Counted from the first letter of the stretch, positions 3,767 through 60,211 are shown. The stretch is 64,000 nt of DNA from Bdellovibrionota bacterium (GCA_041391365.1 JAWKOC010000004.1:82804-146803), one strand, 5' to 3'. A program made the numbers and translations. The notes: a model not told the origin generated them from the letters alone.

Positions 3767-4519
3767 ATGAATCCGTCCTCACGAAATGTTCGCTTATCTT
3801 TTGGATTGCCGTTGACGCCTGTGGTTCGGAATTTGATGTGGATCAATGCGATTGTGTTTGTTTGTATGCTATTGGTTCAAAATCAGACCTTCTTTTTGGA
3901 CATTAGCTATCCAGCAGCCATCGTTCACATGCTGGGAGTCAAACCTCATTCGGTGTTGCATGAGTATGCGTTTTGGCAACCTTTTACCTATCTGTTTCTG
4001 CATGTGGGATGGATGCATCTTCTCATGAACATGTTGGGACTTTGGGTGTTTGGATCTGACGTGGAACGGATCATGGGGCCGCGCCGATTTTTGCAGTATT
4101 ATTTTTTTACGGGAGCTGGAGCGGGGTTGGTTTCTGCTTTCATGGGCATCCCAACGGTGGGTGCATCGGGAGCCATCTTTGGTCTTCTTTTGGCCTTTGG
4201 AATGTTGTTTCCCAATCGAACGTTGTACATTTATTTTATTTTTCCCATCAAGGCCAAATATGCGGTGATGCTCTTTGGTTTGATTGAGTTGGTTTTTTTG
4301 ATGATGCGTTCGGATCAAAGCATGACCAACTATGCAGCACATTTGGCGGGGCTTGCATTTGGATTGTTGTGGTTTTTGTTTCGTTTGCGAAAGTTTGATT
4401 TCAAAGGTTTTTTTCGAGACATCCAACGCAATCGAAAAAAGAAAAAGTTTCGCGTGATCTCCAATCCACCGGAGGATCAGAGTGTGAAGGATCCTTACAA
4501 CAACCACACGATTCATTAA
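3767..4519 (+). CDS. Rhomboid-family intramembrane serine protease
   Basis: 250-aa polytopic membrane ORF with HLLMNMLGLWVFG and the catalytic-Ser motif GASGAIFGLLLAFG, plus a later AHLAGLAFG (His) motif. Confidence 0.85.
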   Translation: MNPSSRNVRLSFGLPLTPVVRNLMWINAIVFVCMLLVQNQTFFLDISYPAAIVHMLGVKPHSVLHEYAFWQPFTYLFLHVGWMHLLMNMLGLWVFGSDVERIMGPRRFLQYYFFTGAGAGLVSAFMGIPTVGASGAIFGLLLAFGMLFPNRTLYIYFIFPIKAKYAVMLFGLIELVFLMMRSDQSMTNYAAHLAGLAFGLLWFLFRLRKFDFKGFFRDIQRNRKKKKFRVISNPPEDQSVKDPYNNHTIH

Positions 4520-4526
4520 AAGGTAC

Positions 4527-4977
4527 GCTCAGTCGCCGCAAGGCTCCCCCGGCCGAGGCCGGAGACAAGGGTCGCACAGACGATCTTGATCCGTTGTGAA
4601 GTCCTCTGCAGGAAATGGCTCGCCGGCACTGCAAATCTTCACTGCAGAATCACCTGCTGCGCTTGAGTTTCCTTCCGAGGATTTCACAACGTATCCCATT
4701 TCATCAGATGCAATGATCAGGGGAAAAAAGAAATAAAGAAAAAAAAGGAGATGCATGCCATGGGCATGCATCATTGTTTCTTATTTATAGGATTTTGAGA
4801 AACTCGGTACGAAAGCTATTGGAGAATTGAGACATTTTCGAGGCGGAAGCGAGAAGGCCACCGGAGCGTACCTGCGGTGTACGTGAGGATGGCCGACGAG
4901 CGACAACAATGAAAATGGCCAATGATTCAATAGCTCTGATGTTGGCCTCGGCCGGGGGGGCCTTGCGGCGACTGAGC
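4527..4977 (+). repeat. Structured intergenic element, copy 1 (shared left module and termini, unique right module)
   Basis: The left terminus GCTCAGTCGCCGCAAGGCTCCCCCGGCCGAGGCC (4527-4560) is the reverse complement of the right terminus 4944-4977, with one T:G position. Bases 4527 to about 4790 are near-identical to 10325 to about 10590 and 13603 to about 13860. It fills the whole gap between the convergent rhomboid stop (4517-4519) and folA stop (4979-4981). Confidence 0.9.
4750..4772. terminator. Central hairpin of element copy 1; putative (mainly minus-direction) intrinsic terminator
   Basis: GATGCATGCC-ATG-GGCATGCATC is a perfect 10-bp stem. A long A-tract sits upstream, which reads as a U-tract for minus-strand transcripts coming from folA. 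A weaker T-rich tract (ATTGTTTCTTATTTAT) sits downstream. Confidence 0.5.
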
Positions 4978-4978
4978 C

Positions 4979-5470
4979 TTATTTTTTGGAATACACCCTT
5001 GCAATCCAAGCATGAGCATTTTTGGGAGTTTCAGGAAAACTCACTTCCGATTCTACTTTCCATGAGGAGAGATCGATCTCTGGAAAATAAGCATCTCCCG
5101 GCGCCTCAAAATTCACATAGGTGAGATACAGTTTGTCGAGAAGAGGAAGGGCTTCTCGATAAATTTGTTCCCCACCAATGACAAAGGCCTCGGTTTCCTC
5201 GCGCTCTTTGGCGAGGTCCAGTGCTTGCTGCAAACCGTGAACCACAAAACAATCTTCGGGCACTTGGTATTCTGTGTTTCGTGTGATGGCGATTGAGGTG
5301 CGGCCCGGCAGGGGAGGGTGAGATTCAAACGTTTTTCTGCCCATGATGATGTGGTGGCCCATGGTGGTTTCTTTGAAGTATTTGAATTCCAAAGGAAGTC
5401 TCCACAACAACTTGTTGTCTTTCCCAATGACTCGGTTTCTTCCCATGGCCGCAATGGCAGAAATGATCAT
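4979..5470 (-). CDS. folA: Dihydrofolate reductase
   Basis: 163-aa [53 protein letters not shown], a canonical DHFR. It overlaps thyA by 4 nt. Confidence 0.9.
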
Positions 5471-6261
5471 ACAGCTACATCTCCTTTGATGTGAGGATGA
5501 GCTTGGTACTTTGATAGCTCAAAATCCTCAAATCGAAATTCAAAAATATTTTTGACCGCAGGATTGATGGTCATGGTGGGCAAGGGATAAGGCTCTCGGG
5601 TCAATTGCAACTTGGCTTGCTCCATATGGTTGGTGTACAAATGAGCATCGCCAAGCGTATGAACAAAGTCGCCAGGTTGCAAATCACACACTTGGGCCAT
5701 CATCATCACAAGCAAGCTGTACGAAGCAATGTTGAACGGTACACCCAAAAATACATCTGCAGAACGCTGGTAGAGCTGACAAGAGAGTTTTCCTTCTGCC
5801 ACATAAAACTGAAAAAAAGCATGGCATGGTGGAAGTGCCATTTGATCCAGCTCTCCTACATTCCAGGCGCTGACGATCATTCTGCGTGAGTCGGGCTGTG
5901 TTTTGATTTGCTGGATGACCTGCGCAATTTGGTCGACGGTGGTTCCATCGGCCGCTTTCCATGATCTCCACTGGGCTCCATAGACGGGGCCAAGATTGCC
6001 GTTTTCATCAGCCCAGGCATCCCAAATTTTCACCTGATTTTCCTTGAGATAGGCGATGTTGGTATCCCCCTGGAGAAACCACAGCAGCTCGTGAATGATG
6101 GACTTGAGGTGACATTTTTTGGTGGTCACCAAGGGAAATCCTTGGCCCAAATCGAATCTCATTTGGTGTCCAAAAATGGATTTTGTCCCTGTGCCGGTTC
6201 GATCTGTTTTTTCGACGCCTTCATCCAATATTTTTTGCATTAAATTCAGATAGTTTCTCAT
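5467..6261 (-). CDS. thyA: Thymidylate synthase (ThyA type)
   Basis: 264-aa ORF with DRTGTGT, the active-site motif [12 protein letters not shown], and the C-terminal ...HIKGDVAV. Confidence 0.95.
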
Positions 6262-6357
6262 AACAGCCCTCTATGAATAGTATGCCTCTCTTCAAATGTC
6301 CACCTCTTCGAAAAGCTCGTGACCTATTTTTGTAGGCCATGGTATAGACACAAGGTT

Positions 6358-9021
6358 ATGCAGTCACAAATGCAATTTGAAAACGTATCCTCCGATTCTC
6401 AGAGCTCAACCCCAAAGACTTCTCCCGCGTCCCAAGCTTCTCAGACGCCGCTGATGAAGCAATACTGGGAGATCAAATCTACGTGTCCAGACGCGATTTT
6501 GTTTTTTCGTTTGGGGGATTTTTATGAAATGTTCTTTGACGATGCTGTCAAAGCTGCGCCAATTCTGGGAATTGCGCTGACTTCCAGGGACAAAAATGCG
6601 CAGAATCCGGTTCCTCTTTGTGGCGTTCCTTTTCATAGCTCTCAGAGTTATGTAGCCAAACTTTTGGATGCAGGTTTGAAAGTGGCCATCTGTGAGCAGG
6701 TTGAAGATGCCTCCCAGAGCAAAGGAATTGTCAAACGAGAGATCATCAAAGTGATCACACCCGGACTTCGCACAGACGAAGAGGGCCTTGCGCCCATGGC
6801 ACAAAACTTTGTGTTGTCCCTGTGTGTTCGAACGTTGCCCAATGAGTTGCATGAATACACCTTGGGCTGTTTGGACTATGCCTCAGGCTCCATAGAAGTC
6901 ATGACCCGAAATCACATCGAAGATCTCATGGATGAAATCGATCGAATCAATCCTGTTGAGATCCTGGTCTTTGATCATACCGACGATGCACAGTGGATCG
7001 AGCGTTATGCCCCCGAGCGTATGTCCAATGTGCATCAGATTCCTCAGTGGGTGTTTTCGCAGGCCAAAGAAGAAATCAAAAAACACTTGAATGTGATGGA
7101 TTTGGGAATGTTGGGTTTGGATCATATTCCTCATGCCTTGGAATCCTGCGCGGCTTTGTATCATTATGTTGGAGTCGAAAACCAAGCCTCGTTGGCCCAT
7201 CTTCAACTTCCCAAACAGCATCGTGATCAGCGCTATATGGTACTCGACCATCATACCATTGAACACTTGGAACTTTTGGATCGTGGCGCCAAATCTGAAA
7301 ACAGTTTGTTTTCCATTTTGAATCAAACCAAAACCAGCATGGGAGCGCGTCGCCTCAAACAGTGGATGGTTCGTCCTTTGTGTGAGCGAGAGCCCATCGA
7401 GCAGCGCTACGATGCCATTGAGATTTTGATCCAAGAGAGAGAACTTCGCAAAGAGCTGAGAGTTCATCTGGCACACGTGTTTGATGTGGAACGAATTTTA
7501 TCTCGTTTGAGTTCGAAGAATGCAAGTCTGAGAGATTTGATCAGTCTATTGGAATCATTGCAACGTGCTTCCCAGATCAAACAACAGCTGGCCCATCTCC
7601 CCAAAACTTTTTTTGCAGGGATCGAAGACTTGTTGGATCCTCTGCCTGCATTGCAAGATTTGTTGCAGCAGTCGTTGAACCTTGAATCTGATTTTTCCAA
7701 ACACTCTTATCTGATCAAAGATGGCTATCATGCGGAGCTCGATCGATGGAGAAACATTGCCAAAGGAAATCGAAATTGGATTTTGGAACTGGAACAGAAA
7801 CAACGAAAAGAGACCGGCATCTCCTCCCTCAAAGTCGGGTACAATAAGGTTTTTGGATATTATCTGGAAGTGACAAACACTCATCGAGATAAAATACCCG
7901 CCCACTACATTCGAAAACAAACGCTGGCCAATGCAGAACGTTTTGTGACCCCTGAATTGAAAGAAAAAGAGTTGGAGATTGAAAACTCCAAACAAGAGAT
8001 GGAAAAGCTTGAAATGCAGTTGTTTCAGGAACTACGTCAAAACGTCTCAATGGAAAAAGACAAACTGCAGACCCTTGCAGATCATTTGGCTCAGCTGGAT
8101 GCAATGGTGTCTTTGGCGCAAGTATGTGCAGACTATGCCTATGTTCGCCCTGTCATACAAGATGGAGATGATTTGATTCTTGATCAAGGAAGACATCCTG
8201 TGGTGGAGCGTAGTCTTGCACTCACTGAGCCGTTTGTTCCCAACAGTGTGCACTTTACCTCCCATGGCAAGAGAATGATTTTGCTCACCGGTCCAAACAT
8301 GGCCGGAAAATCTACGGTGATGAGACAGGTGGGGTTGATCGTGATCATGGCACAGATGGGTTGTTTTGTGCCTGCAGAACAACTAAAATTTTCTTTGGTC
8401 GATCGTGTGTTTACACGCATTGGAGCCTCGGATGATTTGGCAAAAGGTCGGTCCACATTCATGATGGAAATGAGTGAAGCCGCATACATTTTGCATCACG
8501 CGACGCCAAAATCTCTGATTTTGCTGGATGAATTGGGAAGAGGCACAAGCACCTACGATGGATTGTCGATTGCTTGGGCGATCATGGAGCATCTGGATCA
8601 GAAGATTTGTGCAAAAACCATTTTTGCCACGCACTATCATGAGCTCACTTCTCTTGCACAACAGTCTGATACCATCGAAAACATGAGAATGACGATCCAA
8701 GAATGGGAAGGCAAAATAGTGTTTTTGAGAAAATTGGAGATGGGCAGCATTCAAAAAAGCTATGGAATTGAAGTGGCTCGATTGGCAGGAATGGAAACGA
8801 GCATCACCCAAAGAGCGCAGCAGATTTTGAAAGGCCTAGAGAAAACATCTTCTACCACGTCTCTTGGAGATCTTCCTCCACTCAGCGCGGAACCTGAAAT
8901 GTTGCAACCCACTCCCATGGAGATGTGGGTGGATCAGCTTGATCCAGACCAGATGAGCCCCAAGCAGGCCCTGGATCGACTCTACGAGTTGAAAAAAATA
9001 CGAAACTCTTCAAAAAATTGA
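6358..9021 (+). CDS. mutS: DNA mismatch repair protein MutS
   Basis: The ORF 6319..9021 contains TPLMKQYWEIK, GDFYEMFFDDA, the Walker A motif GPNMAGKST, DELGRGTSTYDG and FATHYHEL. The likely start is the ATG at 6358 (MQSQMQF). Confidence 0.95.
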   Translation: MQSQMQFENVSSDSQSSTPKTSPASQASQTPLMKQYWEIKSTCPDAILFFRLGDFYEMFFDDAVKAAPILGIALTSRDKNAQNPVPLCGVPFHSSQSYVAKLLDAGLKVAICEQVEDASQSKGIVKREIIKVITPGLRTDEEGLAPMAQNFVLSLCVRTLPNELHEYTLGCLDYASGSIEVMTRNHIEDLMDEIDRINPVEILVFDHTDDAQWIERYAPERMSNVHQIPQWVFSQAKEEIKKHLNVMDLGMLGLDHIPHALESCAALYHYVGVENQASLAHLQLPKQHRDQRYMVLDHHTIEHLELLDRGAKSENSLFSILNQTKTSMGARRLKQWMVRPLCEREPIEQRYDAIEILIQERELRKELRVHLAHVFDVERILSRLSSKNASLRDLISLLESLQRASQIKQQLAHLPKTFFAGIEDLLDPLPALQDLLQQSLNLESDFSKHSYLIKDGYHAELDRWRNIAKGNRNWILELEQKQRKETGISSLKVGYNKVFGYYLEVTNTHRDKIPAHYIRKQTLANAERFVTPELKEKELEIENSKQEMEKLEMQLFQELRQNVSMEKDKLQTLADHLAQLDAMVSLAQVCADYAYVRPVIQDGDDLILDQGRHPVVERSLALTEPFVPNSVHFTSHGKRMILLTGPNMAGKSTVMRQVGLIVIMAQMGCFVPAEQLKFSLVDRVFTRIGASDDLAKGRSTFMMEMSEAAYILHHATPKSLILLDELGRGTSTYDGLSIAWAIMEHLDQKICAKTIFATHYHELTSLAQQSDTIENMRMTIQEWEGKIVFLRKLEMGSIQKSYGIEVARLAGMETSITQRAQQILKGLEKTSSTTSLGDLPPLSAEPEMLQPTPMEMWVDQLDPDQMSPKQALDRLYELKKIRNSSKN

Positions 9022-9050
9022 TCCTCTGTTATACTTGGAATGCAAAAGAT

Positions 9051-10313
9051 ATGATGTTTCGTAGCATACAATCAGCAGTGTTGATGCTCATCTGCGCATG
9101 GTTCTCTACTTCGGCGTGGGCGGAAGCCCGTGTTTCGGCCATGACCAAAGTGGATCAACCTGATCATATGGAGTTGACCATTTTTTTGTCGGAAGATGCC
9201 ACCTATTCGGTGGGGTTTTTGTCTGCAGAAAAAGGCATCCCCGACCGTATGTTTGTGGATTTTTCACAATCCACCTTGATCAATCCCATGGATGAAATGA
9301 TTTTGGCGGAAAATCCTTGGGTTTCTCGTGTGAGAATTGCACAGAACCAACCCCATCGTGTTCGTTTGGTGGTGGAGTTGAAACAAAAAAGCAGCCAAGG
9401 GGATTTTTCTTTTCACGCCAATGCCAATGGCGTTGTGATCTCCAGGGGCAGGTCTTCTTCGGAGACGATCGCTCAAGAGATCCAAACCCCAGCCCCAGGG
9501 ACTCCTCTTCCCGTGGTAAAAAAACCTGAGCCCTCCACACCGGTGGTGTTGCAGCCTCTGCCCAAAACTCATGCAGAAAAAAAAGTGTATACCATCATTG
9601 TGGATCCAGGTCATGGAGGCAAGCATCCAGGCGCCATCGGAAAGCGCGGAACCATGGAAAAACACATCACTTTGGAAATTGCCAAAAAACTTAGAGATCT
9701 GCTGCAAAAAACAACCCCACACAAAATTCTTATGACTCGGGAAAAAGATGAGTATGTGGATTTGCTTGATCGAACCAAGTTCGCCAATCGCATGCACGGA
9801 GATTTGTTTGTGTCGATTCATGCCAACTCTAGTCCAAAATCCACGGCCAAAGGTGTTTCTACCTATTTTCTCAACAATGCCGATGATGAAGAGTCTCTGC
9901 GTGTGGCTACACGTGAGAACGGTGAGCTCGATCCCAAAGCTTTCATGTCTCATTCGGAAAAGGAGGACAATTACTATTTGGAGATCATGAAAGCTTCGAT
10001 GATGAAAAATTTTCATACGAGCCAATCCACGGAGCTTGCACAAAATGTTCAGACGTCGATGATTGGAGCTCTCAACACCCGCTACCAAAATATTTTCAAT
10101 CGTGGGGTCAAAAGTGCTGGTTTGTATGTTCTTACGGGGGCAGAGATGCCAGCCATTTTGGTAGAGACATCGTTTATTTCCAATCCCGACGAAGAAAAAC
10201 GATTGAAAGATCCTACCTATCCACATTTTTTGGCCATGGCGATTCGTTCGGGCATTGTTGAGTTTTTGAAAGGGTATCAACCTTCTGGCGAAAAACACGC
10301 GTCTTTACATTAG
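9051..10313 (+). CDS. N-acetylmuramoyl-L-alanine amidase (Amidase_3) with N-terminal AMIN-like domain and signal peptide
   Basis: The ORF 9018..10313 has a signal peptide MMFRSIQSAVLMLICAWFSTSAWA starting at 9051. The catalytic region is IIVDPGHGGKHPGA...FVSIHANS...GLYVLTGAEMPAILVETSFISN. Confidence 0.85.
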   Translation: MMFRSIQSAVLMLICAWFSTSAWAEARVSAMTKVDQPDHMELTIFLSEDATYSVGFLSAEKGIPDRMFVDFSQSTLINPMDEMILAENPWVSRVRIAQNQPHRVRLVVELKQKSSQGDFSFHANANGVVISRGRSSSETIAQEIQTPAPGTPLPVVKKPEPSTPVVLQPLPKTHAEKKVYTIIVDPGHGGKHPGAIGKRGTMEKHITLEIAKKLRDLLQKTTPHKILMTREKDEYVDLLDRTKFANRMHGDLFVSIHANSSPKSTAKGVSTYFLNNADDEESLRVATRENGELDPKAFMSHSEKEDNYYLEIMKASMMKNFHTSQSTELAQNVQTSMIGALNTRYQNIFNRGVKSAGLYVLTGAEMPAILVETSFISNPDEEKRLKDPTYPHFLAMAIRSGIVEFLKGYQPSGEKHASLH

Positions 10314-10324
10314 AGATACTTTGC

Positions 10325-10797
10325 GCTCAATCGCCGCGGGGCTCCCCCGGGCGAGGCCGGAGACAAGGTTCGCACAGACGATCTTGATCCGTTGTGAAGT
10401 CCTCTGCAGGAAATGGCTCGCCGGCACTGCGGATCTTCACTGCAGAATCACCTGCTGCGCTTGAGTTTCCTTCCGAGGATTTCACAACGTACCCCATTTC
10501 ATCAGATGCAATGATCAGGGGAAAAAAGAAATAAAGAAAAAAAAGGAGATGCATGCCAAAGGCATGCATCATTGTTTCTTATTATTTTTTTTCTTCTTGT
10601 GCATGAAGCGAAGCATCTGAGAGGGGAAAGCATACGTTTCAAAGTTCTGGGAAAACTAAAGCACAGCCGGAAAGTCGATCGATCTTCTCTTGAGATCAGG
10701 CGAGCCATTTTCCCAGAACTTTGAAACGGGAGCTTACGCATGTCTGTGATGAGTGCCCCACCCGTCCTTGGCCGGGGGAGCCTTGCGGCGATTGAGC
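10325..10797 (+). repeat. Structured intergenic element, copy 2 (complete palindromic form)
   Basis: Termini 10325-10352 and 10770-10797 are complementary, including A:T at 10330/10792 where the other copies have G:C. It shares both left and right modules with copy 3. It lies between the convergent amidase stop (10311-10313) and the stop of ORF 10805..11248. Confidence 0.9.
10548..10570. terminator. Central hairpin of element copy 2; putative bidirectional intrinsic terminator
   Basis: GATGCATGCC-AAA-GGCATGCATC, preceded by GGGGAAAAAAGAAATAAAGAAAAAAAAGGA and followed by ATTGTTTCTTATTATTTTTTTTC. Confidence 0.55.
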
Positions 10798-10804
10798 GTA
10801 AAAT

Positions 10805-11248
10805 TTATTGACCGTTGGAAAGAGAAAAGACCTGTTCCATAGGGAGCAACTCCCCTTCGTTGCTGGAGCCGCCAGTTGTGGCCACAGAGATTTGCAATCT
10901 ATTGGACTCTGGGCAGGACTCCATGCCCATTTTCATCAACGATAGTTCGATGGAAGATGAACCGATGCGAACCACGCGCATGTCGAACTTTTCTACGGTT
11001 TCAAAATCGGTGTAAAAACTGATCTCCGCTCGTGGCAGCGAGTCCACGTCGTGGTCGAATCGAATGCGAAAAGCCATGCATGTATTGTCCGAAAGATCTG
11101 AAGAAGAGATGTTGGAAAATGACAGTAGCCTTGTATCGCTGAAGGTTACAGCCTTGGCCATGACCCAGGGAAGAGCTGCAGTGATCAGGATTCCAACAAT
11201 GGCCATCCATAGCCATTTTGAATTCTCCTTTTTTTTCGAGTACTGCAT
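10805..11248 (-). CDS. Hypothetical small exported/membrane-anchored protein
   Basis: 147-aa ORF with an N-terminal hydrophobic segment WLWMAIVGILITAALPWVMA. No recognisable domain. Confidence 0.6.
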   Translation of the reverse strand: MQYSKKKENSKWLWMAIVGILITAALPWVMAKAVTFSDTRLLSFSNISSSDLSDNTCMAFRIRFDHDVDSLPRAEISFYTDFETVEKFDMRVVRIGSSSIELSLMKMGMESCPESNRLQISVATTGGSSNEGELLPMEQVFSLSNGQ

Positions 11249-11314
11249 AATCTCTTTTTTTCAGGAAAGGTCGTGGGTGATAGATTTCACCCACGACCTT
11301 TCCTCAATTTTCTT

Positions 11315-12265
11315 TTAAAAACCGGTGATGGGTCCAAACGCCTCGCTGGTCACTTCGGTTTGTCCGGTGGTCATTTGAACATCCACATTGACCCCACTGC
11401 TGATGGAGAGATCAATTCCTGTTCCGCTAGGACCTGCATTGGTCAGTTGGTTTCCAGCTGAATCATAGGCTTGATTGACCACCAATCGATAGCTTCGACC
11501 CGAGGTGCAGTCTTCATACAAAGGTTTGACATACCAAACATCTACCTTGTCGAAAAAAACGGTTCCCACTTGCAGATACGATGCAGTGCTAGGATTGTTC
11601 CAGTTGCCAAAGGCTCCTTTGAAAAGCACATTGAATTGAGGCATAGATGCCAGACCTTCGTTGAACGTGACTCGGAAGTGTCCGAAGCAACCGGTGCCTT
11701 CTTTGATGCGCTCTATTTTTTTGATGTAGGGAGGATTGACAGGATCGTTGTTGTTGATGCCTCCACCGTTGGCTGCACCAACCCAGAAACGAATGCTTCC
11801 CGTGGTATAGATTCCACCAAAGAGTTGTCGACCAATTTGGTCATAAATGTTTTTGTTCAGTAGAACTTTGTACTCCCCGTTGCTCAAGACCACCGAGGAA
11901 CTCAATGACAACACGACCGTGTAATCACCATTGGTCAATACGGCTGGATCAAATTTGGAAGTTACATCATCTATGGTTCCATTGGTTGAGGTTCTTTCCA
12001 CTCGAATGTTGCTGCTCAAGCTGCTGGCGTCGACTTTTTCATTGAAGGTCAAATAAACTTTGGTGCCCTGGGCGGAGTTGTAGGCCGACTCATGCAAAGG
12101 GGAAGATTCCACAAGGTCAAAAATGTTTTGACCCAGGGATCCCTGCTGCCAAAATCCATTGGACGGAGATCCTGTGGTTCCGCAGGATGCCATGGCGATG
12201 GAAAGGAGACCAGCTCCGACCATGCGACTCATAGAAAAATACCATTTTTGCTCTGTTTTTTTCAT
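11315..12265 (-). CDS. Hypothetical lipoprotein with Ig-like (SbsA/Big_5-like) N-terminal domain; paralog of 12391..13494
   Basis: 316-aa ORF with the lipobox LSIAMASC. The segment SSPLHESAYNSAQGTKVYLTFNEKVDASSLSSNIRV resembles bacterial Ig-like domains. Blocks shared with the neighbour are FWVG..GGGI, G.FGC.G, CTSGRSYRLVVNQAYDSAGN, and the C-terminus SEAFGPITGF. Confidence 0.7.
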   Translation of the reverse strand: MKKTEQKWYFSMSRMVGAGLLSIAMASCGTTGSPSNGFWQQGSLGQNIFDLVESSPLHESAYNSAQGTKVYLTFNEKVDASSLSSNIRVERTSTNGTIDDVTSKFDPAVLTNGDYTVVLSLSSSVVLSNGEYKVLLNKNIYDQIGRQLFGGIYTTGSIRFWVGAANGGGINNNDPVNPPYIKKIERIKEGTGCFGHFRVTFNEGLASMPQFNVLFKGAFGNWNNPSTASYLQVGTVFFDKVDVWYVKPLYEDCTSGRSYRLVVNQAYDSAGNQLTNAGPSGTGIDLSISSGVNVDVQMTTGQTEVTSEAFGPITGF

Positions 12266-12390
12266 CGTACCCCTAGAATTAGCAACTCTTGTGCCAACTT
12301 CTCTCTTTGTAACTTATTAAAATCATAGGACGAAAGAAGATGTTGCCGAGTGTTTCTGCGGCTTTGATGTCCATCCCCCTCCCATGGTTT

Positions 12391-13494
12391 CTACAACCCT
12401 AGAAAGGGTCCAAAGGTCTCACTCTCGGTAAAAAGGGACCCATTTGAGATCACAGAGTCAGCATCGACTCCCGTATGAGGCTGACTTTGTCCAACACCGT
12501 ACGCGGAAAGATCGTGACCATTTTTGTTTTCTGTTTTGGGAAAATCATCGCTTGGATCGTTGGGTGTTCCATTGTCATCGATGATTTGAACACCATTGGC
12601 ATCCAACACAGGTAGTACAATCGTGCTAGACATGGTATTGCCGTCGATGTCGGTGGCCGAATCAATCACCAGACGATAGGCTCTTCCCGGAATGCAAGAT
12701 CCATAGCCAATCGGTAGATAGGCATGCCAGGATTTTTGACTCAACAAATCTGTGGTTCCAATGCTGTGAGGGGTAAGCGTGTTTACGTTTTGCCATTTTT
12801 TGTATTCAGTATCGTTGTTCAGGCCAAGATACGCATCTTTGTATTTGAAATACATGACAGGAGGAGACTCAAGGCTCTCGTTGAAATTGACCACCACCAT
12901 CAAACCATTGCAGCCAAAATTGCCCAATTTTCGTTTCACGATGCTCACCGCATGAGGTGGATGGGTGGGGTCGTTGGCAATTCCCCCTCCAAAAGGTGAT
13001 CCTACCCAAAAATTGAGTTTGATTTCACTATATTTTTGATCCGCCAAAAATGAGCCATAGGTATCGCGAACATAGGAGTTCATGGTTGTGATGTATTTGG
13101 CCGCCGGCAGCGTTTGACCTTGGTGGACGGTGTAAATCAGAGATCTTCCATCGCTGGAAAGGGTTGGAGGAGAATTGAAGAGGCTGGTGGTCACTTCTTG
13201 ATTGATGATGGATGTTCCGATGTTGGGAGAGGTTTCCTGATAAATTCGGATGTTTCCATCGACGGTGCTTGGATCTACTGCCGAGTTGAAGGTCAGAACC
13301 AGTGTGGTTTGCCCGCTGTTGTAGGTGGAGTTGTGGAAAGGAGAAACTGCAATGACATCGAAAACAAAAGGGGACCCATCCTCGTTGAAGCGATTTTGAC
13401 GGCTTTCCGAGCCGCAGCTCGTGAGCAGGCAGACACTCAAAAGGGTGAAAAACAAGCGTGAATCACGAAGGGGGGATGTAATATTACGCAGCAT
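12391..13494 (-). CDS. Hypothetical lipoprotein, paralog of 11315..12265
   Basis: ORF 12391..13530. The likely start is the ATG at 13494 (MLRNITSPL...), with the lipobox LLTSC. It has the same conserved blocks as its neighbour: SPFHNSTYNSGQTTLVLTFNSAVDPSTVDGNIRI, FWVGSPFGGGI, CIPGRAYRLVIDSATDIDGN, and the C-terminus SETFGPFLGL. Confidence 0.7.
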   Translation of the reverse strand: MLRNITSPLRDSRLFFTLLSVCLLTSCGSESRQNRFNEDGSPFVFDVIAVSPFHNSTYNSGQTTLVLTFNSAVDPSTVDGNIRIYQETSPNIGTSIINQEVTTSLFNSPPTLSSDGRSLIYTVHQGQTLPAAKYITTMNSYVRDTYGSFLADQKYSEIKLNFWVGSPFGGGIANDPTHPPHAVSIVKRKLGNFGCNGLMVVVNFNESLESPPVMYFKYKDAYLGLNNDTEYKKWQNVNTLTPHSIGTTDLLSQKSWHAYLPIGYGSCIPGRAYRLVIDSATDIDGNTMSSTIVLPVLDANGVQIIDDNGTPNDPSDDFPKTENKNGHDLSAYGVGQSQPHTGVDADSVISNGSLFTESETFGPFLGL

Positions 13495-13602
13495 GTCTGA
13501 CCTTATATTCCAGGATTTTGTCGAGTGCAAGTGAATAAATGTGTGACTTTACTAACTTATTGATTTTATTTCATTATGTTATTTCGCAAAATGTTAAAAG
13601 GT

Positions 13603-14071
13603 GCTCAGTCGCCGCAAGGCTCCCCCGGCCGAAGCCGGAGATAAGGGTCTCACAGACGATCTTGATCCGTTGTGAAGTCCTCGGCAGGAAATGGCTCGCC
13701 GGAACTGCAAATCTTCACTGCAGAATCACCTGCTGCGCTTGAGTTTCCTTCCGAGGATTTCACAACGTGTCCCATTTCATCAGATGCAATGATCAGGAGA
13801 AAAAAGAAAAAAAGAGGAGATGCATGCCATGGGCATGCATCATTGTTTCTTATTATTACTTTTTTTCTTCTTGTGCATGAAGCGAAGAATCTGAGAGGGG
13901 AAAGCTCCCGTTTCGAAGTTCTGGGAAAACTAAAGCGCAGCCCGGAAGTCGATTGATCTTCTCTTGAGATCAGGCGAGCCATTTTCCCAGAACTTCGAAA
14001 CGGGAGCTTACGCATGTCTGTGATGAGTGCCCCACCCGTCCTTGGCCGGGGGAGCCTTGCGGCGACTGAGC
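13603..14071 (+). repeat. Structured intergenic element, copy 3 (complete palindromic form)
   Basis: Termini 13603-13630 and 14044-14071 are complementary. The right-arm hairpin 13904-13929/13982-14007 is a 26-bp perfect stem. The right terminus ends 1 nt from the stop codon (14073-14075) of ORF 14073..15101. Confidence 0.9.
13819..13841. terminator. Central hairpin of element copy 3; putative bidirectional intrinsic terminator
   Basis: GATGCATGCC-ATG-GGCATGCATC with an A-tract upstream and ATTGTTTCTTATTATTACTTTTTTTC downstream. It is placed to terminate the minus-strand gene 14073..15101. Confidence 0.5.
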
Positions 14072-14072
14072 A

Positions 14073-15101
14073 TTACTCTTTGGGATCCAAAAAAACTTCT
14101 GTGGCTTCGGAAGATGGATCGGATGCAGGTTTTCTTTCAATCAAAGGAATCAAAACGATGGCTACGCTACAAAACATGAGAAACCCCAAAGGAAATGCCC
14201 ATAGCAAAACAAATGGATTTCGATTTTTCACCACTTCCAAGGTTTGAGGAAGCTTCTTCAGCTGGAATGTTCTGAAATCTTCCAAATATTCCTGGCTTTC
14301 TTGGCCCAGCACGTTTTTCCACTGGTACATCTCCGATTCCAAATCGTTGATGCTGTTTTCAGTTTCACTGATTTTGGCTTCGATCTCTTGATACCGTTTG
14401 AGCTGGCTTTGCTTGGGGCCAATCTTAGTTTCGATCTCCTCAATTTTTGGCGTGAGCTTTTCAATTTGTGCATGCGCTTGGGTCAATTGCGTTTGAAAGG
14501 AGTTCTCTTCTCCTTTTTCCATCAATCTTGCCATCACGCTCAGCTGTGCTTGCCTGAGTCGAAGATTCTCTTTCAAGTTGGTGAGTTTTCGGTCTTCTCG
14601 ATCCACTTCTTCTTCCACCTCATAAAAATCGATGTCGATGTCTTGGAGTTGGATTTCAAGCAAACTCAGATCGGTGGATCGATCTATGATTTCCTGATTG
14701 AGTTGGTCCACTCGCTCGTTGGCGATGTCTCTATGGATCATTCCCAATGTGGAAGGGAGAACAGAAGAAAACACATGTTCTACAGCCCCGCGCTGACTTC
14801 GATTCTGTGCAATGGCTTTGCAAGACGCTGTAGGACTGTTGAGAGATTTTTTGCAAATCAGATGAGTCTCATCAAAAGGAGGGTAAATCATGCGAATGCT
14901 TTCAAGAGCCACAGATTGAATGTTGTTTTCAATCTGATCTTGAGAAATTTCAGGAGTGATTCCCACCAATCCGTAGTGATGACCCACCCAATAACTTTGA
15001 GGGATCAAAAGATAGCACAGATAGGAAAACGACAATGCAAAGAACACCGCAAGGCTAAAAAAAATCGAATGATCAACTTTGTCGTGCATACCGTTGTACA
15101 A
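14073..15101 (-). CDS. Hypothetical bitopic coiled-coil membrane protein
   Basis: 342-aa ORF with N-terminal (IFFSLAVFFALSFSYLCYLLI) and C-terminal (FVLLWAFPLGFLMFCSVAIVLIPLI) hydrophobic helices. These flank a long heptad-like E/K/Q-rich region. Confidence 0.65.
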   Translation of the reverse strand: MYNGMHDKVDHSIFFSLAVFFALSFSYLCYLLIPQSYWVGHHYGLVGITPEISQDQIENNIQSVALESIRMIYPPFDETHLICKKSLNSPTASCKAIAQNRSQRGAVEHVFSSVLPSTLGMIHRDIANERVDQLNQEIIDRSTDLSLLEIQLQDIDIDFYEVEEEVDREDRKLTNLKENLRLRQAQLSVMARLMEKGEENSFQTQLTQAHAQIEKLTPKIEEIETKIGPKQSQLKRYQEIEAKISETENSINDLESEMYQWKNVLGQESQEYLEDFRTFQLKKLPQTLEVVKNRNPFVLLWAFPLGFLMFCSVAIVLIPLIERKPASDPSSEATEVFLDPKE

Positions 15102-45022: not shown

Positions 45023-48000
45023 TTACGCAAACATTTTTCTTCGAACGGGGATGTACAGTCCAAAGATAAGCAAAAATCTCCAAAGACCTGACCCTGAGCT
45101 GGATTGGCACCCTCCAAACAAACCTTTTTCTGCAGAACCTCCCAAACGAACATCTACTTGATTGGGATTGAGCCCCTTTTCTGATTCTTCTTGATCGTTG
45201 ATTCCATCCCCATCAGAGTCTGTGGTTGATGGTTTGGGAGAAACGAGGGTTTCATCGAGTACAGGGCCATTGTTCGAAGAATTGGAATCTCCCAAGGTGA
45301 GCACTCTAGCATTGGGTTTGAACGTTCCTGGTGTAGGTGTGGATACCCGCAAACTCAACGTAGGAGCATAGGCCAAAGAACCTATGCTTGCGATCAATTG
45401 ACAAGTCAGTTGACCTGCCACATGCAAACAGGTCCAATCGCTTCCTCGAATACGAAACAAAATCCAGTCCAGAAGGAAAAGAAACCGTAACTGTAGTAAG
45501 AGCTGTGGTGGATGCTCCTCCATGGTTGAACACATCGATCGAATAGGTCAGTGTCCCATCTTGAACTCCATTTCCGCTATGAAACATTTGGACGGAAAGA
45601 TCTGGAAATACAATGATGCTGACAAAATTGCTTGCGGAAGCACCAGAAACGTTGTCGGTACCACCGCTTCCTTCTTGGTCGAAGGTAACATCTCCATCAG
45701 AGATGGAGTTGGAGACGGTGGAACCAGTTGCACTGGATTGCACAGAGCAGGTTAGCGTGAGGAGGCACTGGCGGCATTGGCGAGACTGCCAACCGACCAT
45801 GTACCACTGAGTAAGAGCCTGTGGCGGTGGAGCTGGAGATGGAAGAAGTGCCGGAAGGACAGGCATCATTGATGGCGAGGTTGGTGGCGGTTTGCTGACC
45901 AGAGTTGCTTACGCCGATGGTGTAGATGAGGTTGGTTCCAACATTGACCGCACCGGTGGGGCTTACGCTTTTGGTGACGGTCAGAGCGGGAAGAGAGTTG
46001 ACGGAGTTGCTTGCGGAAGCACCGGAAACGTTGTCGGTACCACCACTTCCTTCTTGGTCGAAGGTGACATCTCCATCAGAGATGGAGTTGGAGACGGTGG
46101 AACCAGCTGCACTGGATTGCACAGAGCAGGTTAGCGTGAGGGAAGCACTGGCAGCATTAGGCGAGACTGCCAATCGACCATGTACCACTGGAGTAAGAAC
46201 CTGTGGCGGTGGAGCTGGAGACGGAGGAGGTACCGGGAAGGACAGGCGTCATCGATGGCGAGGTTGGTGGCGGTTTGCTGGACCAGAGTTGCTTACGCCG
46301 ATGGTGTAGATGAGGTTGGTTCCGACATTGACCGCACCGGTGGGGCTTACGCTTTTGGTGATGGTCAGAGCGGGAAGAGAGTTGACGGAGTTGCTTGCGG
46401 AAGCACCGGAAACGTTGTCGGTACCACCACTTCCTTCTTGGTCGAAGGTGACATCTCCATCAGAGATGGAGTTGGAGACGGTGGAACCAGCCGCGCTGGA
46501 TTGCACAGAGCAGGTTAGCGTGAGGGAAGCACTGGCAGCATTGGCGAGACTGCCAACCGACCATGTACCACTGGAGTAAGAACCTGTGGCGGTGGAGCTG
46601 GAGACGGAAGAGGTACCGGAAGGACAGGCGTCATCGATGGCGAGGTTGGTGGCGGTTTGCTGACCAGAGTTGCTTACGCCGATGGTGTAGATGAGGTTGG
46701 TTCCGACATTGACCGCACCGGTGGGGGCTTACGCTTTTGGTGATGGTCAGAGCGGAAGAGAGTTGACGGAGTTTGAAACACTTGCACCGGAAACGTTGTC
46801 GGTACCACCACTTCCTTCTTGGTCGAAGGTGACATCTCCATCAGAGATGGAGTTGGAGACGGTGGAACCAGCTGCGCTGGATTGCACAGAGCAGGTTAGC
46901 GTGAGGGAGACACTGGCGGCATTGGCGAGACTTCCGAGGGACCATGTGCCACTGGAGTAAGAACCTGTGGCGGTGGAGCTGGAGACGGAGGAGGTACCGG
47001 AAGGACAGGCGTCATCGATGGCGAGGTTGGTGGCGGTTTGCTGACCAGAGTTGCTTACGCCGATGGTGTAGATGAGGTTGGTTCCGACATTGACCGCACC
47101 GAGTGGGGCTTACGCTTTTGGTGACGGTCAGAGCGGGAAGAGAGTTGACGGAGTTGCTTGCGGAAGCACTCGGAAACGTTGTCGGTACCACCACTTCCTT
47201 CTTGGTCAGCAGTGACATCTCCATCAGAGATGGAGTTGGAGACGGTGGAACCAGCTGCACTGGATTGCACAGAGCAGGTTAGCGTGAGGGAAGCACTGGC
47301 AGCATTGGCAAGACTTCCGAGGGACCATGTGCCACTGGAGTAAGAACCTGTGGCGGTGGAGCTGGAGACGGAAGAGGTACCGGAAGGACAGGCATCATTG
47401 ATGGCGAGGTTGGTGGCGGTTTGCTGACCAGAGTTGCTTACGCCGATGGTGTAGATGAGGTTGGTTCCAACATTGACCGCACCGGTGGGGCTTACGCTTT
47501 TGGTGACGGTCAGAGCGGGAAGAGAGTTGACGGAGTTTGAAACACTTGCACCGGAAACGTTGTCGGTACCACCACTTCCTTCTTGGTCGAAGGTGACATC
47601 TCCATCAGAGATGGAGTTGGAGACGGTGGAACCAGCTGCACTGGATTGCACAGAGCAGGTTAGCGTGAGGGAAGCACTGGCAGCATTGGCGAGACTGCCA
47701 ACCGACCATGTACCACTGGAGTAAGAACCTGTGGCGGTGGAGCTGGAGACGGAGGAGGTACCGGAAGGACAGGCGTCATCGATGGCGAGGTTGGTGGCGG
47801 TTTGCTGACCAGAGTTGCTTACGCCGATGGTGTAGATGAGGTTGGTTCCGACATTGACCGCACCGGTGGGGCTTACGCTTTTGGTGATGGTCAGAGCGGG
47901 GGGAGTATTTCCAACACTTACTGAGGCACTTGCTGGAACATCATCTGCGGTGGATGCTGTGGTATCAATTTGTTCGCTTCCAACAAAACCGATGGCCTGA

Positions 48001-49250
48001 TTGCTGTAAAGCCCAGTGGTCGCAGGAAGAGTCACTTGATAAATGAGATTGTACACCGTTGGAGTCAGAGCATTGCTGGCAGCTGGAATGGTGAAGATTC
48101 GGTTCCACGAAAGAAACTGATTGAATCCACCACTGATTGTGGGGTCATCAATTGAAACCTCAGCCCCAGGGGCTCCATATTTGGCACTTCCGAGCACATA
48201 AGCTCCAACATCCGGACTTACGGGAAGAGTGTCTTGAATGGAGTCGAGCGACATATCTCCTGAGTAGCCATTGATGGTATCGTCTGGGTTGGGGTTGGTG
48301 ATTGACACCGTATATTCGATGGTTCCACCGGTTGCGGGAAGAGAGGAAACATCTGATGATTTGCTCATCGTCAGATTGTTGATCACCTGAGGAATGGGAA
48401 TGATGCTCGTGGGATAGGTTCCCGTGTATTTGATAATGCCCCCCGAGGCGATGTATCCCGAAGGCCAAACTTCGGTTTGTGTTGAAATGGTGGCTTCCAA
48501 TCGGAATTTGTATGTCACTACATAGGTGGAACTGGAGAAGGGAAGAGGGGTTGGAATTTTCAAATAGTCATCGTACGTATAAATGGTTCCACCGTCATTG
48601 AACTCAAACGCTACATTATACAATCGGAATAAATAGGCTGGCCAATCCGGAGCAAAAGCTGGGGTGAAATATGTTTTCCCCGCATTTCCCCCACTGGAAG
48701 CGATGGTACCGGTTTGCCCCGATACGATGACCTCCAAAATTCCTCCGAGGGTTGGTGGATTGGGTCCATTGACGACCGTGATGACTTTGTTGGCGGAAGC
48801 CGACTGTGCATCGGAGGCGTTGAGCAAAAAGATCGAGGTGTATATGGCTGTACTCGAACCTGAAGGAGGTTCGTCAAAGATTTTGATTTGATGGGATTCA
48901 GCAAGGACCGTGTCTGCGGTGGTACAAAGGTAAAAATAAATGTACTTTCGGTCTCCAACATTCATGGGGCCAACATGGTAAGAGTCGCTTTCGTCTCCTG
49001 CGAGTTCAATGACGGCGACGGGGGAAAAGCCGTCGATTTTTACCCAGATGTCGGGCTCGTTGCTGCCAGCGTCGTGATAAATTTCATACGCAACATATCC
49101 ACAGTTCTGAGCCGGGTCAGGTGCTGTTGGAGCCGTGATTTCATAATACAATGTGTCTCCCGATCGCCTGGAAATGGTCCAGGCCATGGCATCGGAAAAG
49201 AAAAAGACGCACGCAAGAGTCACCAAGAAAGAAGCGATTTTATGATTCAT
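45023..49250 (-). pseudogene. Giant DUF11-repeat (TIGR01451-type) surface protein gene; reading frame broken repeatedly inside its tandem repeats (true decay or assembly artefact)
   Basis: The intact N-terminal ORF 47055..49250 (731 aa) has the signal peptide MNHKIASFLVTLACVFFFSDAMA. It is followed by fragments in other frames (47012..47260, 46249..46506, 45697..46188, 45306..45869, 45023..45535) that all encode the same repeat ...TKSVSPTGAVNVGTNLIYTIGVSNSGQQTATNLAI.DACPSGTS... The C-terminal fragment ends with DSDGDGINDQEE and a sorting-signal-like tail. Confidence 0.7.
45627..47902 (-). repeat. About six tandem copies of a 381-bp (127-codon) repeat, >95% identical by eye
   Basis: The marker GTTAGCGTGAGG recurs at 45751, 46130, 46514, 46895, 47278 and 47659. 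The periods are 379, 384, 381, 383 and 381 bp. Confidence 0.9.
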
Positions 49251-52779: not shown

Positions 52780-53102
52780 GGAGTGGAAAAGTTTTTGTAT
52801 CCAATCAATTTGCGGGGCGTATTTATGAGTCTGACGAAGGTTTTATTTTTGCCTATGATCAAAATTATTTACGCATAGAAAATGCGACACCTGTCAGTTT
52901 GACAATGCCCCTACAATCTGACGAATACAAAAGCAAAACAATGTTTCCATTTTTTGACGGATTGATTCCAGAGGGATGGCTCCTAAGCATCACGCAGAAA
53001 CATTGGAAAATTCAATCGAATGATCGAATGGCTTTGCTTCTTACCGTCTGTCGAGACTGTATTGGGAATGTTCATATAGAAAATGAGGAAGAAAATATAT
53101 GA
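52776..53102 (+). CDS. hipS: HipS-like protein (stand-alone HipA N-terminal subdomain, 'couple_hipA')
   Basis: 108-aa ORF: VFVSNQFAGRIYESDEGFIFAYDQNY...PVSLTMPLQ...MFPFFDGLIPEGW...CRDCIGNVHI. It is collinear with the first ~100 aa of E. coli HipA. It has 4-nt overlaps with both neighbours. Confidence 0.8.
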   Translation: MRSGKVFVSNQFAGRIYESDEGFIFAYDQNYLRIENATPVSLTMPLQSDEYKSKTMFPFFDGLIPEGWLLSITQKHWKIQSNDRMALLLTVCRDCIGNVHIENEEENI

Positions 53103-54064: not shown

Positions 54065-54228
54065 AATATGGCACAGACCCAAGTATGTATCTCGATAAAG
54101 TTTTACTTTTTGTTAGAAGCGATACAGTGTTTTATATGTTCATGAAAAAAAATGATTCATAAGGCTCCAGAGGATGGTGAGCTGATTGTTACCCCGAAAA
54201 ACAAACGTCGCTATGACGGAGCAAAAGC

Positions 54229-60118: not shown

Positions 60119-60211
60119 AAATCGGCCTTATCATCTTCAAACTCAAATGCAAAGCCCATTTATGGGACAGTGTGAGAAAAAGTCTCTTCCTTTGGAGTAG
60201 AGTCTAAGTGC

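What the first reader, a model, noticed from the sequence alone, without database searches (positions are those of the whole stretch)
13603..14071. Compensatory substitutions and strand-specific wobble pairs between copies point to selection on base pairing (plus-strand RNA or ssDNA)
With only three copies there are already two clean double substitutions that keep stems paired. In the terminal stem, position 6 is G:C in copy 1 (4532/4972) and in copy 3, but A:T in copy 2 (10330/10792). In the right-arm hairpin the pair is A:T in copy 2 (10641/10722) and G:C in copy 3 (13915/13996). In copy 3 this stem is further extended to 26 bp (GCTCC/GGAGC). All single-sided changes create pairs that are tolerated only if the + strand is the folded strand. 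These are GG opposite TT in the copy 2 terminal stem (10338-10339 vs 10783-10784), T opposite G in the copy 1 terminal stem (4545 vs 4959), and G opposite T in the left-arm hairpin of all copies (e.g. 4601 vs 4682). On the minus strand these would be C:A mismatches. The central hairpin mutates only in its loop. This pattern is what one expects of a functional RNA, or a single-stranded DNA intermediate, read from the + strand. It is not expected of neutral decay.
Basis: seen in the sequence. Interest (0 to 1): 0.78.

Follow-up and report, generated by a model that had tools for sequence, protein, structure and literature searches.

The report
Symmetric mobile insert with conserved hairpins
The three repeats are copies of a small, two-fold symmetric, transposon-like insert that carries a two-way transcription stop signal flanked by two copies of a hairpin module, and this module also occurs in mobile elements of unrelated bacteria and is in no RNA family library.

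Summary
The claim that every single-sided change is a plus-strand wobble is wrong, because G:G, C:T and A:C pairs also occur. Among the three copies, paired and unpaired positions change equally often (6.8% vs 5.8%). Ten pairs changed on one side and two on both, so the resident copies look like neutral decay.

The element is a 451-473 nt MITE-like insert in a Bdellovibrionota MAG. It consists of a 34-37 bp terminal inverted repeat, a hairpin module, a bidirectional intrinsic terminator, an inverted hairpin module and the second repeat. A relative has only 12 nt at the copy-1 site.

The arm hairpin is a real conserved structure. Its core (AATGGCTCGCC, 31-35 nt, GCTGYGCTTNAGTT) tops 24-49 bp stems of unrelated sequence in seven metagenome contigs, one inside an IS66-family element. 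There, 23 of 27 stem pairs covary, and two G·U pairs are invariant.

The folded strand is + for the left arm and - for the right arm. "Selection on pairing" therefore holds for the arms, probably acting during propagation. A single plus-strand RNA does not hold. The terminal stem is a DNA inverted repeat.

The parts
13603..14071 (.). Copy 3 of the element (469 nt), the copy named in the finding
   Evidence: Repeat families D1-D3 and inverted pair I5; alignment A1.
13603..13638 (+). Copy 3 left terminal inverted repeat
   Evidence: 33 of the first 36 positions form Watson-Crick pairs with 14036-14071. The exceptions are G:T, A:C and C:T.
14036..14071 (-). Copy 3 right terminal inverted repeat
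13666..13769 (+). Copy 3 left-arm hairpin module, sense on the + strand. The core is AATGGCTCGCC, 31 nt, GCTGCGCTTGAGTT.
   Evidence: Covariance model R1 scores 94.3 bits, E = 7e-22; stem map.
13819..13841 (.). Copy 3 central bidirectional intrinsic terminator: 10 bp stem, 3 nt loop, purine-rich A-tract before it and T-rich tract after it
   Evidence: A terminator-like site is called on both strands.
13904..14007 (-). Copy 3 right-arm hairpin module, sense on the - strand, with a perfect 28 bp stem
   Evidence: R1 scores 100.7 bits, E = 1e-23.
4527..4977 (.). Copy 1 (451 nt). It lies between the stop codons of a rhomboid gene (+) and a DHFR gene (-).
   Evidence: A relative has only 12 nt at this site.
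4590..4693 (+). Copy 1 left-arm hairpin module
   Evidence: R1 scores 92.4 bits.
4750..4772 (.). Copy 1 central bidirectional terminator
4812..4937 (.). Copy 1 right arm. It is unrelated in sequence to the module but folds into an imperfect hairpin of its own.
   Evidence: No R1 match with filters off; fold z-score -4.4; alignment A1.
10325..10797 (.). Copy 2 (473 nt). It lies between the stop codons of an amidase gene (+) and a 147-aa ORF (-).
10388..10491 (+). Copy 2 left-arm hairpin module
   Evidence: R1 scores 91.4 bits.
10548..10570 (.). Copy 2 central terminator hairpin (loop AAA)
   Evidence: Same stem as in copies 1 and 3 in the alignment. Inferred to be a terminator by identity.
10630..10733 (-). 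Copy 2 right-arm hairpin module. Three adjacent mismatches lie at the base of the stem.
   Evidence: R1 scores 89.9 bits.

Best explanation
The three repeats are copies of a non-coding, two-fold symmetric, transposon-like insertion of the MITE type in the chromosome of an uncultured Bdellovibrionota bacterium.

Each half has a GC-rich terminal inverted repeat of 34-37 bp, a short spacer (TCACAGAC) and a hairpin module of about 105 nt. The two halves face each other across a bidirectional rho-independent terminator.

The hairpin module is an independently conserved structured unit. Its sense strand always runs from the end of the element inwards. Its core is an irregular helix with two invariant G·U pairs and a 3-nt bulge. 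The long stem below the core can have any sequence.

Proposed working (inferred, not shown): the element lands just behind genes. A transcript reading in from either side acquires the repeat plus a sense-strand module as a 3' extension, and stops at the central terminator.

The hairpin is kept intact in the lineages that propagate. It may also be repaired by hairpin-templated DNA synthesis. Copies already resident in the genome drift neutrally. The compensatory differences between copies are therefore subfamily markers and templated corrections. They are not evidence that the host selects on one plus-strand RNA.
For: Anatomy:
- Terminal inverted repeats.
- The right half is an inverted, diverged copy of the left half.
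- The central hairpin is called as a terminator on both strands.
- There is no conserved ORF. The 81-aa minus-strand ORF of copies 1 and 2 is not kept in copy 3, whose ORFs differ and which carries a 7-nt deletion there.

Evidence that it is an insertion:
- The copies sit 1-11 nt from the stop codons of unrelated housekeeping genes.
- A syntenic relative (MutS 57% identical) has only 12 nt between the rhomboid and DHFR genes, and no module.
- The arms are exchangeable: copy 1 has a different right arm between the same repeats.

Evidence for the module:
- The loop-motif scan found 7 metagenome contigs with the same core on stems of unrelated sequence.
- Covariation is strong.
- The covariance model finds nothing in 1.33 Mb of unrelated loci.
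- One instance lies between the transposase stop codon and the right inverted repeat of a complete IS66-family element.
- In the instances where an element end can be recognised (the window arms, L084/L090, L083/L087/L089, L085/L086), the sense strand runs from the end inwards.
- Sense-strand RNA is more stable in 11 of 11 modules.

Evidence for neutral drift of the resident copies: paired and unpaired positions are substituted equally often, and 10 pairs changed on one side against 2 on both.
Against: - No target-site duplication is visible at any of the three copies (read from the sequence).
- No autonomous partner with the same inverted repeat was found. The 25-nt repeat pattern had 0 hits in the genome, viral and metagenome collections.
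- The rest of the source MAG could not be read. Copy number and presence/absence polymorphism within the species are therefore unknown.
- The only 'empty site' comes from a distant relative.
- Nothing here shows transcription, termination or transposition.
- What reads the module core is unknown.
Confidence: 0.6

Rival explanations
1. One reading: the whole element is one functional plus-strand RNA, or a plus-strand ssDNA intermediate. Its nested stems (terminal stem, arm hairpins, central hairpin) are kept by selection in this genome.
For: - The + strand folds 20-25 kcal/mol better than the - strand in copies 1 and 2.
- There are two clean double substitutions.
- G:T pairs are somewhat more frequent than A:C pairs.
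Against: - Folding is equal on both strands in copy 3.
- The right-arm module is the mirror image of the left-arm module and reads on the - strand.
- A bidirectional terminator sits between the two termini.
- No promoter-like site was found.
- Paired positions are no more conserved than unpaired ones.
- G:G, C:T and A:C pairs exist in the stems.
- The modest G:T excess is also what C-to-T bias on the G-rich strand would give. GC skew is positive across the region.
Confidence: 0.08
2. The compensatory pattern is made by mutation, not selection. In a DNA palindrome, one arm is copied onto the other by intrastrand template switching or mismatch correction. This produces double and multi-base 'compensatory' changes in a single step.
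For: - The copy 3 stem extension is three adjacent changes on one arm only. In module orientation it is TAT to GGA. TAT is shared by the copy 2 right arm and by copy 1's left arm (TAC and TGT in the other two left arms).
- The youngest-looking modules have perfect 46-49 bp stems with no G·T pair in about 190 bp. That is unusual for a stem maintained only as RNA.
- The mechanism is documented (PMC8794818, PMC7202029, PMC5941160).
Against: - It does not explain why the core sequence, its two G·U pairs and its bulge are invariant across phyla.
- It does not explain why the same Y·Y and G·T non-canonical positions persist in both the window left arm and contig L088.
- Ten single-sided changes remain uncorrected in the resident copies.
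Confidence: 0.4
3. The element moves as single-stranded DNA through a HUH/Y1 transposase, like IS200/IS605-derived palindromic elements or REPINs. The hairpins would be the enzyme's recognition sites.
For: - There is no target-site duplication.
- The hairpins are conserved in structure and polarity.
- All three copies have the same orientation.
- One metagenome instance lies next to an IS200-like Y1 transposase fragment.
Against: - A long, near-perfect terminal inverted repeat is not a feature of that family (established knowledge).
- No Y1 or RAYT gene was seen among the window ORFs scanned.
- No conserved tetranucleotide lies next to the element ends.
- The Y1 gene in L086 is truncated at the point where the repeat shared with L085 begins. 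This looks like an insertion into it, not a partnership with it.
- Copy 1 has only one module.
Confidence: 0.1
4. The copies have been domesticated by the host as bidirectional terminator and 3'-UTR stabiliser cassettes between convergent genes, and are now kept by host selection.
For: - Copies 1 and 2 lie exactly between convergent stop codons, and copy 3 lies right behind a stop codon.
- The terminator stem is identical in all copies, and only its loop varies.
- Four of the five canonical modules are in sense orientation behind a gene.
Against: - Stems of the resident copies decay at the same rate as the loops.
- The relative manages with 12 nt at the same site.
- Only three copies were available, so conservation of the terminator cannot be told apart from recent insertion.
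Confidence: 0.2

Closest known systems
Bacterial MITEs with regulatory cargo, such as the Correia (CREE/NEMIS) elements of Neisseria
   Same: It is a short non-coding insert with terminal inverted repeats and several intergenic copies next to gene ends. It folds into a long hairpin when transcribed and can supply transcription signals. The properties of Correia elements are recalled from my own knowledge and were not tested here.
   Different: - It is three to four times longer than a Correia element.
- It shows no TA or other target duplication.
- It has a nested architecture with two subterminal hairpin modules and a central bidirectional terminator.
- Its repeat sequence is unrelated, and no partner transposase is known.
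IS66-family insertion sequence carrying the same module (contig L090, ENA ERZ28013244) and its MITE-like derivatives (L083/L087/L089, L085/L086)
   Same: The core motif, the long stem and the polarity (sense strand running from the element end inwards) are all the same.
   Different: - Those elements end in GTAACTACTC..., not GCTCAGTCGCC...
- They carry one module, not two.
- L083 has an 8-bp direct repeat, GAATTATT, around a unit of about 250 nt. The window copies have none.
- Related IS66 elements lack the module altogether.
REP/BIME and REPIN palindromic repeats
   Same: They are intergenic, hairpin-forming and multicopy, and often lie behind genes, where they can stabilise upstream mRNA (established knowledge).
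   Different: In REPINs the stem sequence is the conserved part and the loop varies. Here the reverse holds across lineages. No GTAG-type 5' motif and no RAYT gene was seen.
Bidirectional rho-independent terminators
   Same: The central hairpin has a 10 bp GC-rich stem, a 3 nt loop, an A-tract upstream and a T-tract downstream. It is scored as a terminator on both strands.
   Different: Here it is cargo of a repeated insert rather than a one-off intergenic signal.
Subterminal hairpins of IS200/IS605 and the folded attC sites of integrons
   Same: These are strand-specific single-strand hairpins with bulged or mismatched bases, where structure rather than stem sequence is what is conserved (established knowledge).
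   Different: - Those hairpins are much shorter.
- Their conserved bases lie at the foot of the hairpin (attC R boxes, IS608 guide bases), not near the tip.
- No matching recombinase gene is nearby.

Membership tests
MITE (miniature inverted-repeat transposable element) | Short (under about 600 bp) and without a conserved coding frame | tested here: met
   The copies are 451-473 nt. The ORFs differ between copies, and a 7-nt indel shifts the frame of the longest one. The protein search with the 121-aa ORF found nothing.
MITE (miniature inverted-repeat transposable element) | Terminal inverted repeats | tested here: met
   The repeats are 34-37 bp, with 31-33 Watson-Crick pairs out of 34-36 positions.
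MITE (miniature inverted-repeat transposable element) | Several dispersed copies in unrelated contexts | tested here: met
   Three copies lie between unrelated genes within 9.5 kb. The genome-wide number is unknown.
MITE (miniature inverted-repeat transposable element) | Target-site duplication | tested here: not met
   No direct repeat flanks any copy. A TTA lies near both ends of each copy but coincides with stop codons.
MITE (miniature inverted-repeat transposable element) | An autonomous element with matching inverted repeats | tested here: inconclusive
   The repeat pattern gave 0 hits in three collections. No transposase was seen among the window ORFs scanned. The rest of the MAG is not retrievable.
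MITE (miniature inverted-repeat transposable element) | Empty orthologous sites | tested here: inconclusive
   A relative with 57% MutS identity has 12 nt at the copy 1 site. It is too distant to fix the insertion boundaries.
Structured non-coding RNA gene on the + strand | Covariation supporting the structure | tested here: met
   Met for the arm hairpin only. The terminal stem has one double change and the central hairpin has none.
Structured non-coding RNA gene on the + strand | One defined transcribed strand with its own promoter and terminator | tested here: not met
   The architecture is mirror-symmetric. No promoter-like site was found and the terminator lies in the middle. Folding is equal on both strands in copy 3.
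Structured non-coding RNA gene on the + strand | Match to a described RNA family | tested here: not met
   Rfam 15 gave no match at gathering score. At lenient E-values only hairpin noise from miRNA-precursor and RNase P models appeared.
IS200/IS605-derived palindromic element / REPIN | No terminal inverted repeat, subterminal hairpins, and a conserved short motif next to the cleavage site | tested here: not met
   A long inverted repeat is present, and no shared tetranucleotide lies at the ends.
IS200/IS605-derived palindromic element / REPIN | A cognate Y1/RAYT transposase in the genome | not testable with these tools
   None was seen among the window ORFs scanned. The rest of the genome is unavailable.
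Rho-independent terminator (central hairpin) | GC-rich stem, short loop, T-run after the stem | tested here: met
   Scored on both strands in copies 1 and 3. Function was not tested.
IS66-family derived element | GTAA... inverted repeat termini and an 8-bp target duplication | tested here: not met
   The window termini are GCTCAG... with no 8-bp duplication. Only the hairpin module is shared with the IS66 element L090.

The most novel reading that the evidence does not exclude
The core of about 58 nt may be a previously undescribed, strand-specific recognition module, acting as RNA or as ssDNA.

Its features are an irregular helix with two invariant G·U pairs, a 3-nt bulge and a variable cap, sitting on a long stem of arbitrary and often perfect sequence.

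On this reading it is read by an unknown trans-acting factor, and it has spread into unrelated mobile elements (an IS66-family element, GTAAC-ended MITEs and this GCTCAG-ended MITE) in bacteria ranging from about 40% to over 70% GC.

The perfect stems could mean that the module creates or repairs its own hairpin, by inserting into existing hairpin loops or by snap-back copying of the flanking DNA.
Probability: 0.3. Interest if true: 0.75.

Novelty: new variant of a known kind. Interest (0 to 1): 0.5.

Why it matters
The result separates two things that look alike in a small alignment. One is selection on a structure in the lineage that propagates. The other is neutral drift plus templated repair in the copies that stay put. 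Double substitutions between a few paralogous repeats are weak evidence for a host-functional RNA.

The follow-up also uncovered a conserved hairpin module that is absent from Rfam 15. It has clear covariation and fixed polarity, and it rides in different mobile elements of distant bacteria.

If its reader can be found, it could reveal one of three things: a new way for transposons to insulate themselves from outside transcription, a new RNA-processing signal, or a new hairpin-directed DNA transaction.

The element is also a natural portable bidirectional terminator cassette.

Tried and rejected
- Rfam at gathering and at lenient thresholds, on the window and on the metagenome contigs, gave only sub-threshold hairpin noise.
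- The 25-nt inverted-repeat pattern had no hit in the genome, viral or metagenome collections. The loop motif had none in viral contigs.
- Recovering the source contig failed. The exact ThyA, amidase and MutS products are not on record. MutS identifies a Bdellovibrionota MAG with a 154.6 kb contig.
- Looking for element copies through spurious ORFs in the protein database found nothing.
- blastn of the element and of two metagenome modules against plasmids and phages gave only chance matches with E of 2-9.
- A full-text search for the motif strings returned only unrelated primer-like matches. Concept searches found no description of the element.
- A small peptide starting at the conserved ATGGCTCGCC was rejected. 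By my reading of the contig sequences, the frames end after 7-35 codons and share nothing beyond M-A-R. The window copies encode a 33-aa ORF.
- The idea that copy 1's right arm is a diverged module was rejected. The covariance model gives no match with filters off.
- The idea that IS66-family elements generally carry the module was rejected. Homologues at 66-72% identity lack it.
- Resemblances of the core to dif/XerC arms, boxA, the 11-nt tetraloop receptor, group II intron domain V, and SRP or 6S RNA were considered from memory. None fitted well enough to pursue.

Full report
**What is in the window**

Three copies of an element of about 460 nt lie at 4527-4977, 10325-10797 and 13603-14071. 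All are in the same orientation, and the remaining 50 kb holds no further whole or partial copy.

The left 260 nt is shared by all three copies at 85-96% identity. Copies 2 and 3 also share the right half at 93%. The right interior of copy 1 is unrelated.

The surroundings are an ordinary bacterial chromosome at about 46% GC. The order is: rhomboid, copy 1, DHFR, ThyA, MutS, amidase, copy 2, a 147-aa ORF, two Big_5 proteins, copy 3, a 342-aa ORF, Lnt. Further on lie ProS, enolase, NusA, IF-2, PNPase and others.

MutS is 100% identical to a protein from an NCBI Bdellovibrionota MAG. That contig could not be fetched.

**Check of the observation**

The statement that all single-sided changes are plus-strand wobbles is not correct:
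- The terminal stem of copy 2 has G:G at 10351/10771 and C:T at 10357/10765.
- Copy 3 has A:C at 13633/14041 and C:T at 13635/14039.
- The left hairpin of copy 2 has A:C at 10387/10492.

By my count of independent events, about six favour the + strand and two favour the - strand (one-sided binomial about 0.14). The region has positive GC skew throughout, so a C-to-T bias on the + strand would push the count the same way.

Whole-element folding is equal on the two strands for copy 3, at -246.3 and -245.4 kcal/mol. The + strand is better by 20-25 kcal/mol for copies 1 and 2.

Between copies 2 and 3, 103 pairs were scored:
- Two changed on both sides and ten on one side.
- About 0.40 chance double hits are expected, so P(>=2) = 0.06.
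- Substitutions hit 14 of 206 paired and 15 of 260 unpaired positions (p = 0.70).

On their own, the three copies look like neutral decay with a marginal excess of compensated pairs.

**Anatomy**

In copies 2 and 3 the right half is a diverged inverted copy of the left half. From each end inwards there is:
- a GC-rich inverted repeat of 34-37 bp;
- the spacer TCACAGAC;
- a hairpin of about 105 nt whose upper part reads RAAATGGCTCGCC, 31 nt, GCTGYGCTTNAGTTTYC.

Between the left and right arms the stems differ by substitutions and by a 3-bp length change present on both strands, yet both remain paired.

The centre is a 10 bp GC-rich hairpin with a 3 nt loop. A purine-rich A-tract precedes it and a T-rich tract follows it. 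The scan calls it a terminator on both strands, and it finds no promoter-like site.

The element is therefore two-fold symmetric: repeat, module, bidirectional terminator, inverted module, repeat. The right arm of copy 1 is a different hairpin-forming sequence, so the arms behave as exchangeable cargo between constant ends.

**Evidence that it is an insertion**

The copies start and end 1-11 nt from the stop codons of unrelated genes.

A contig from a relative, with MutS 57% identical, keeps the gene order but has only 12 nt between the rhomboid and DHFR genes. It has no module. A second contig of that relative has an ordinary small terminator hairpin behind the amidase gene.

No target-site duplication can be seen. 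No element with the same repeat was found anywhere.

**The arm hairpin is a conserved module**

A metagenome scan with the two loop motifs returned seven contigs. In each, the motif caps a gapless stem of 24-49 bp. The stem sequence is unrelated between families:
- L083, L087 and L089;
- L084, which is the same element as L090;
- L085 and L086;
- the GC-rich contig L088.

In an anchored alignment of 11 sequences from six lineages:
- 94% of cells are paired, against 63% after shuffling and 36-48% with the partner slid.
- 23 of 27 stem pairs change on both sides.
- RNAalifold finds the same structure without guidance.

The core is an irregular helix. It has two invariant G·U pairs flanking a 3-nt bulge, and three further invariant pairs.

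The window's left arm and L088 share the same non-canonical positions (C:T, T:C and G:T at stem positions 5, 7 and 13) even though their GC content is very different.

With RNA parameters the motif-sense strand is more stable in all 11 modules, by 4.3 kcal/mol on average. With DNA parameters there is no asymmetry.

The covariance model finds no instance in 1.33 Mb of unrelated bacterial loci. Rfam 15 has no such family.

**Context of the module elsewhere**

L090 is a complete IS66-family element:
- Its left end is GTAACTGCTCCCCCCCCC followed by a plain 25 bp hairpin.
- Its right end has a perfect 49 bp hairpin with the core, lying between the transposase stop codon and the repeat GTAACTACTACCCCCTCC.

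Related IS66 elements lack the module. In L092 the repeat follows the stop codon directly.

L083 carries a unit of about 250 nt with one module, flanked by the 8-bp direct repeat GAATTATT.

Wherever an element end can be recognised, the sense strand of the module runs from the end inwards. In the window that means the + strand for the left arm and the - strand for the right arm.

**Interpretation**

The arm hairpins are under real structural constraint and have a defined strand.

There is no single plus-strand molecule, however. A transcript entering from either flank meets the repeat, then a sense module, then the central terminator. The two termini should therefore rarely be on one RNA. The terminal 'stem' is best read as a DNA inverted repeat.

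The constraint appears between lineages but not among the resident copies. Closely related metagenome copies behave the same way:
- L085 and L086 differ by three uncompensated changes.
- L083 and L087 differ by one compensated change.

This pattern fits selection acting when the element propagates, not host selection on each copy.

Part of the compensation is probably mutational:
- The copy 3 stem extension is three adjacent changes on one arm.
- The young stems are perfect, with no G·T in about 190 bp.

Both observations are what hairpin-templated synthesis produces (PMC8794818; also PMC7202029 and PMC5941160).

**Limits**

Transcription, termination and mobility are all inferred. The factor that reads the core is unknown. 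Families of stem-loop repeats are common in bacteria (PMC2267715), and this element is a new variant of that kind. The cross-phylum module is the part worth pursuing.

Noticed in passing
window 45628-47900: There are six tandem copies of a 381-nt unit (127 codons) at 94% identity. They lie mostly inside the minus-strand gene for a DUF11-repeat surface protein (47055-49250) and extend upstream of it. This is also the GC-richest stretch of the window (0.57).
   Followed up: partly
window 4513-4526 / 4978-4995 and 13592-13602 / 14072-14089: The flanks of copies 1 and 3 resemble each other. On the left both read TTAAAAGGT. On the right they read CTTATTTTTTGGAATACA and ATTACTCTTTGGGATCCA (13 of 18 identical). 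The left motif at copy 1 is host sequence, since the relative also has it. This may be a target preference or chance involving stop codons.
   Followed up: partly
window 4979-5005 vs L081 8598-8633: The DHFR C-terminus changes right at the element junction. The window reads ...ARVYSKK* and the relative without the element reads ...ARVYSRNHS*. The insertion may have reshaped the last codons.
   Followed up: partly
window 4527-14071: All three copies lie within 9.5 kb and in the same orientation, and there are none in the other 50 kb. This could reflect local hopping or a regional hotspot.
   Followed up: no
window 10805-11248: The 147-aa ORF next to copy 2 has no Pfam match. It is absent from the syntenic contig of the relative (L082), where the amidase gene is followed directly by the Big_5 gene.
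   Followed up: partly
L090 192-272: The left end of the IS66-family element has a 25 bp hairpin with an 11-nt loop directly after its inverted repeat. The right end has the 49 bp hairpin with the conserved core. Both stems contain TCTAAAA at a similar distance from the terminus, as if the core sits in the loop of an older end hairpin.
   Followed up: partly
L089 328-500 and 2110-2279; L101 124-277 and 2040-2191: These IS66-family elements have unusually long terminal inverted repeats of about 150-170 nt, starting GTAACTA.
   Followed up: no
L086 312-596: An IS200-like Y1 transposase ORF is cut off exactly where the repeat shared with L085 begins. The module-bearing repeat appears to have inserted into it.
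   Followed up: partly
window 53099-54320: A HipA-like kinase gene (53099-54064) lies directly next to tRNA-Ser(GGA) (54229-54320, minus strand), in the AT-richest part of the window. This may be the edge of an island.
   Followed up: no
window 58241-63992: Three tandem paralogous genes for family-5 solute-binding proteins lie upstream of two oligopeptide ABC ATPase genes.
   Followed up: no
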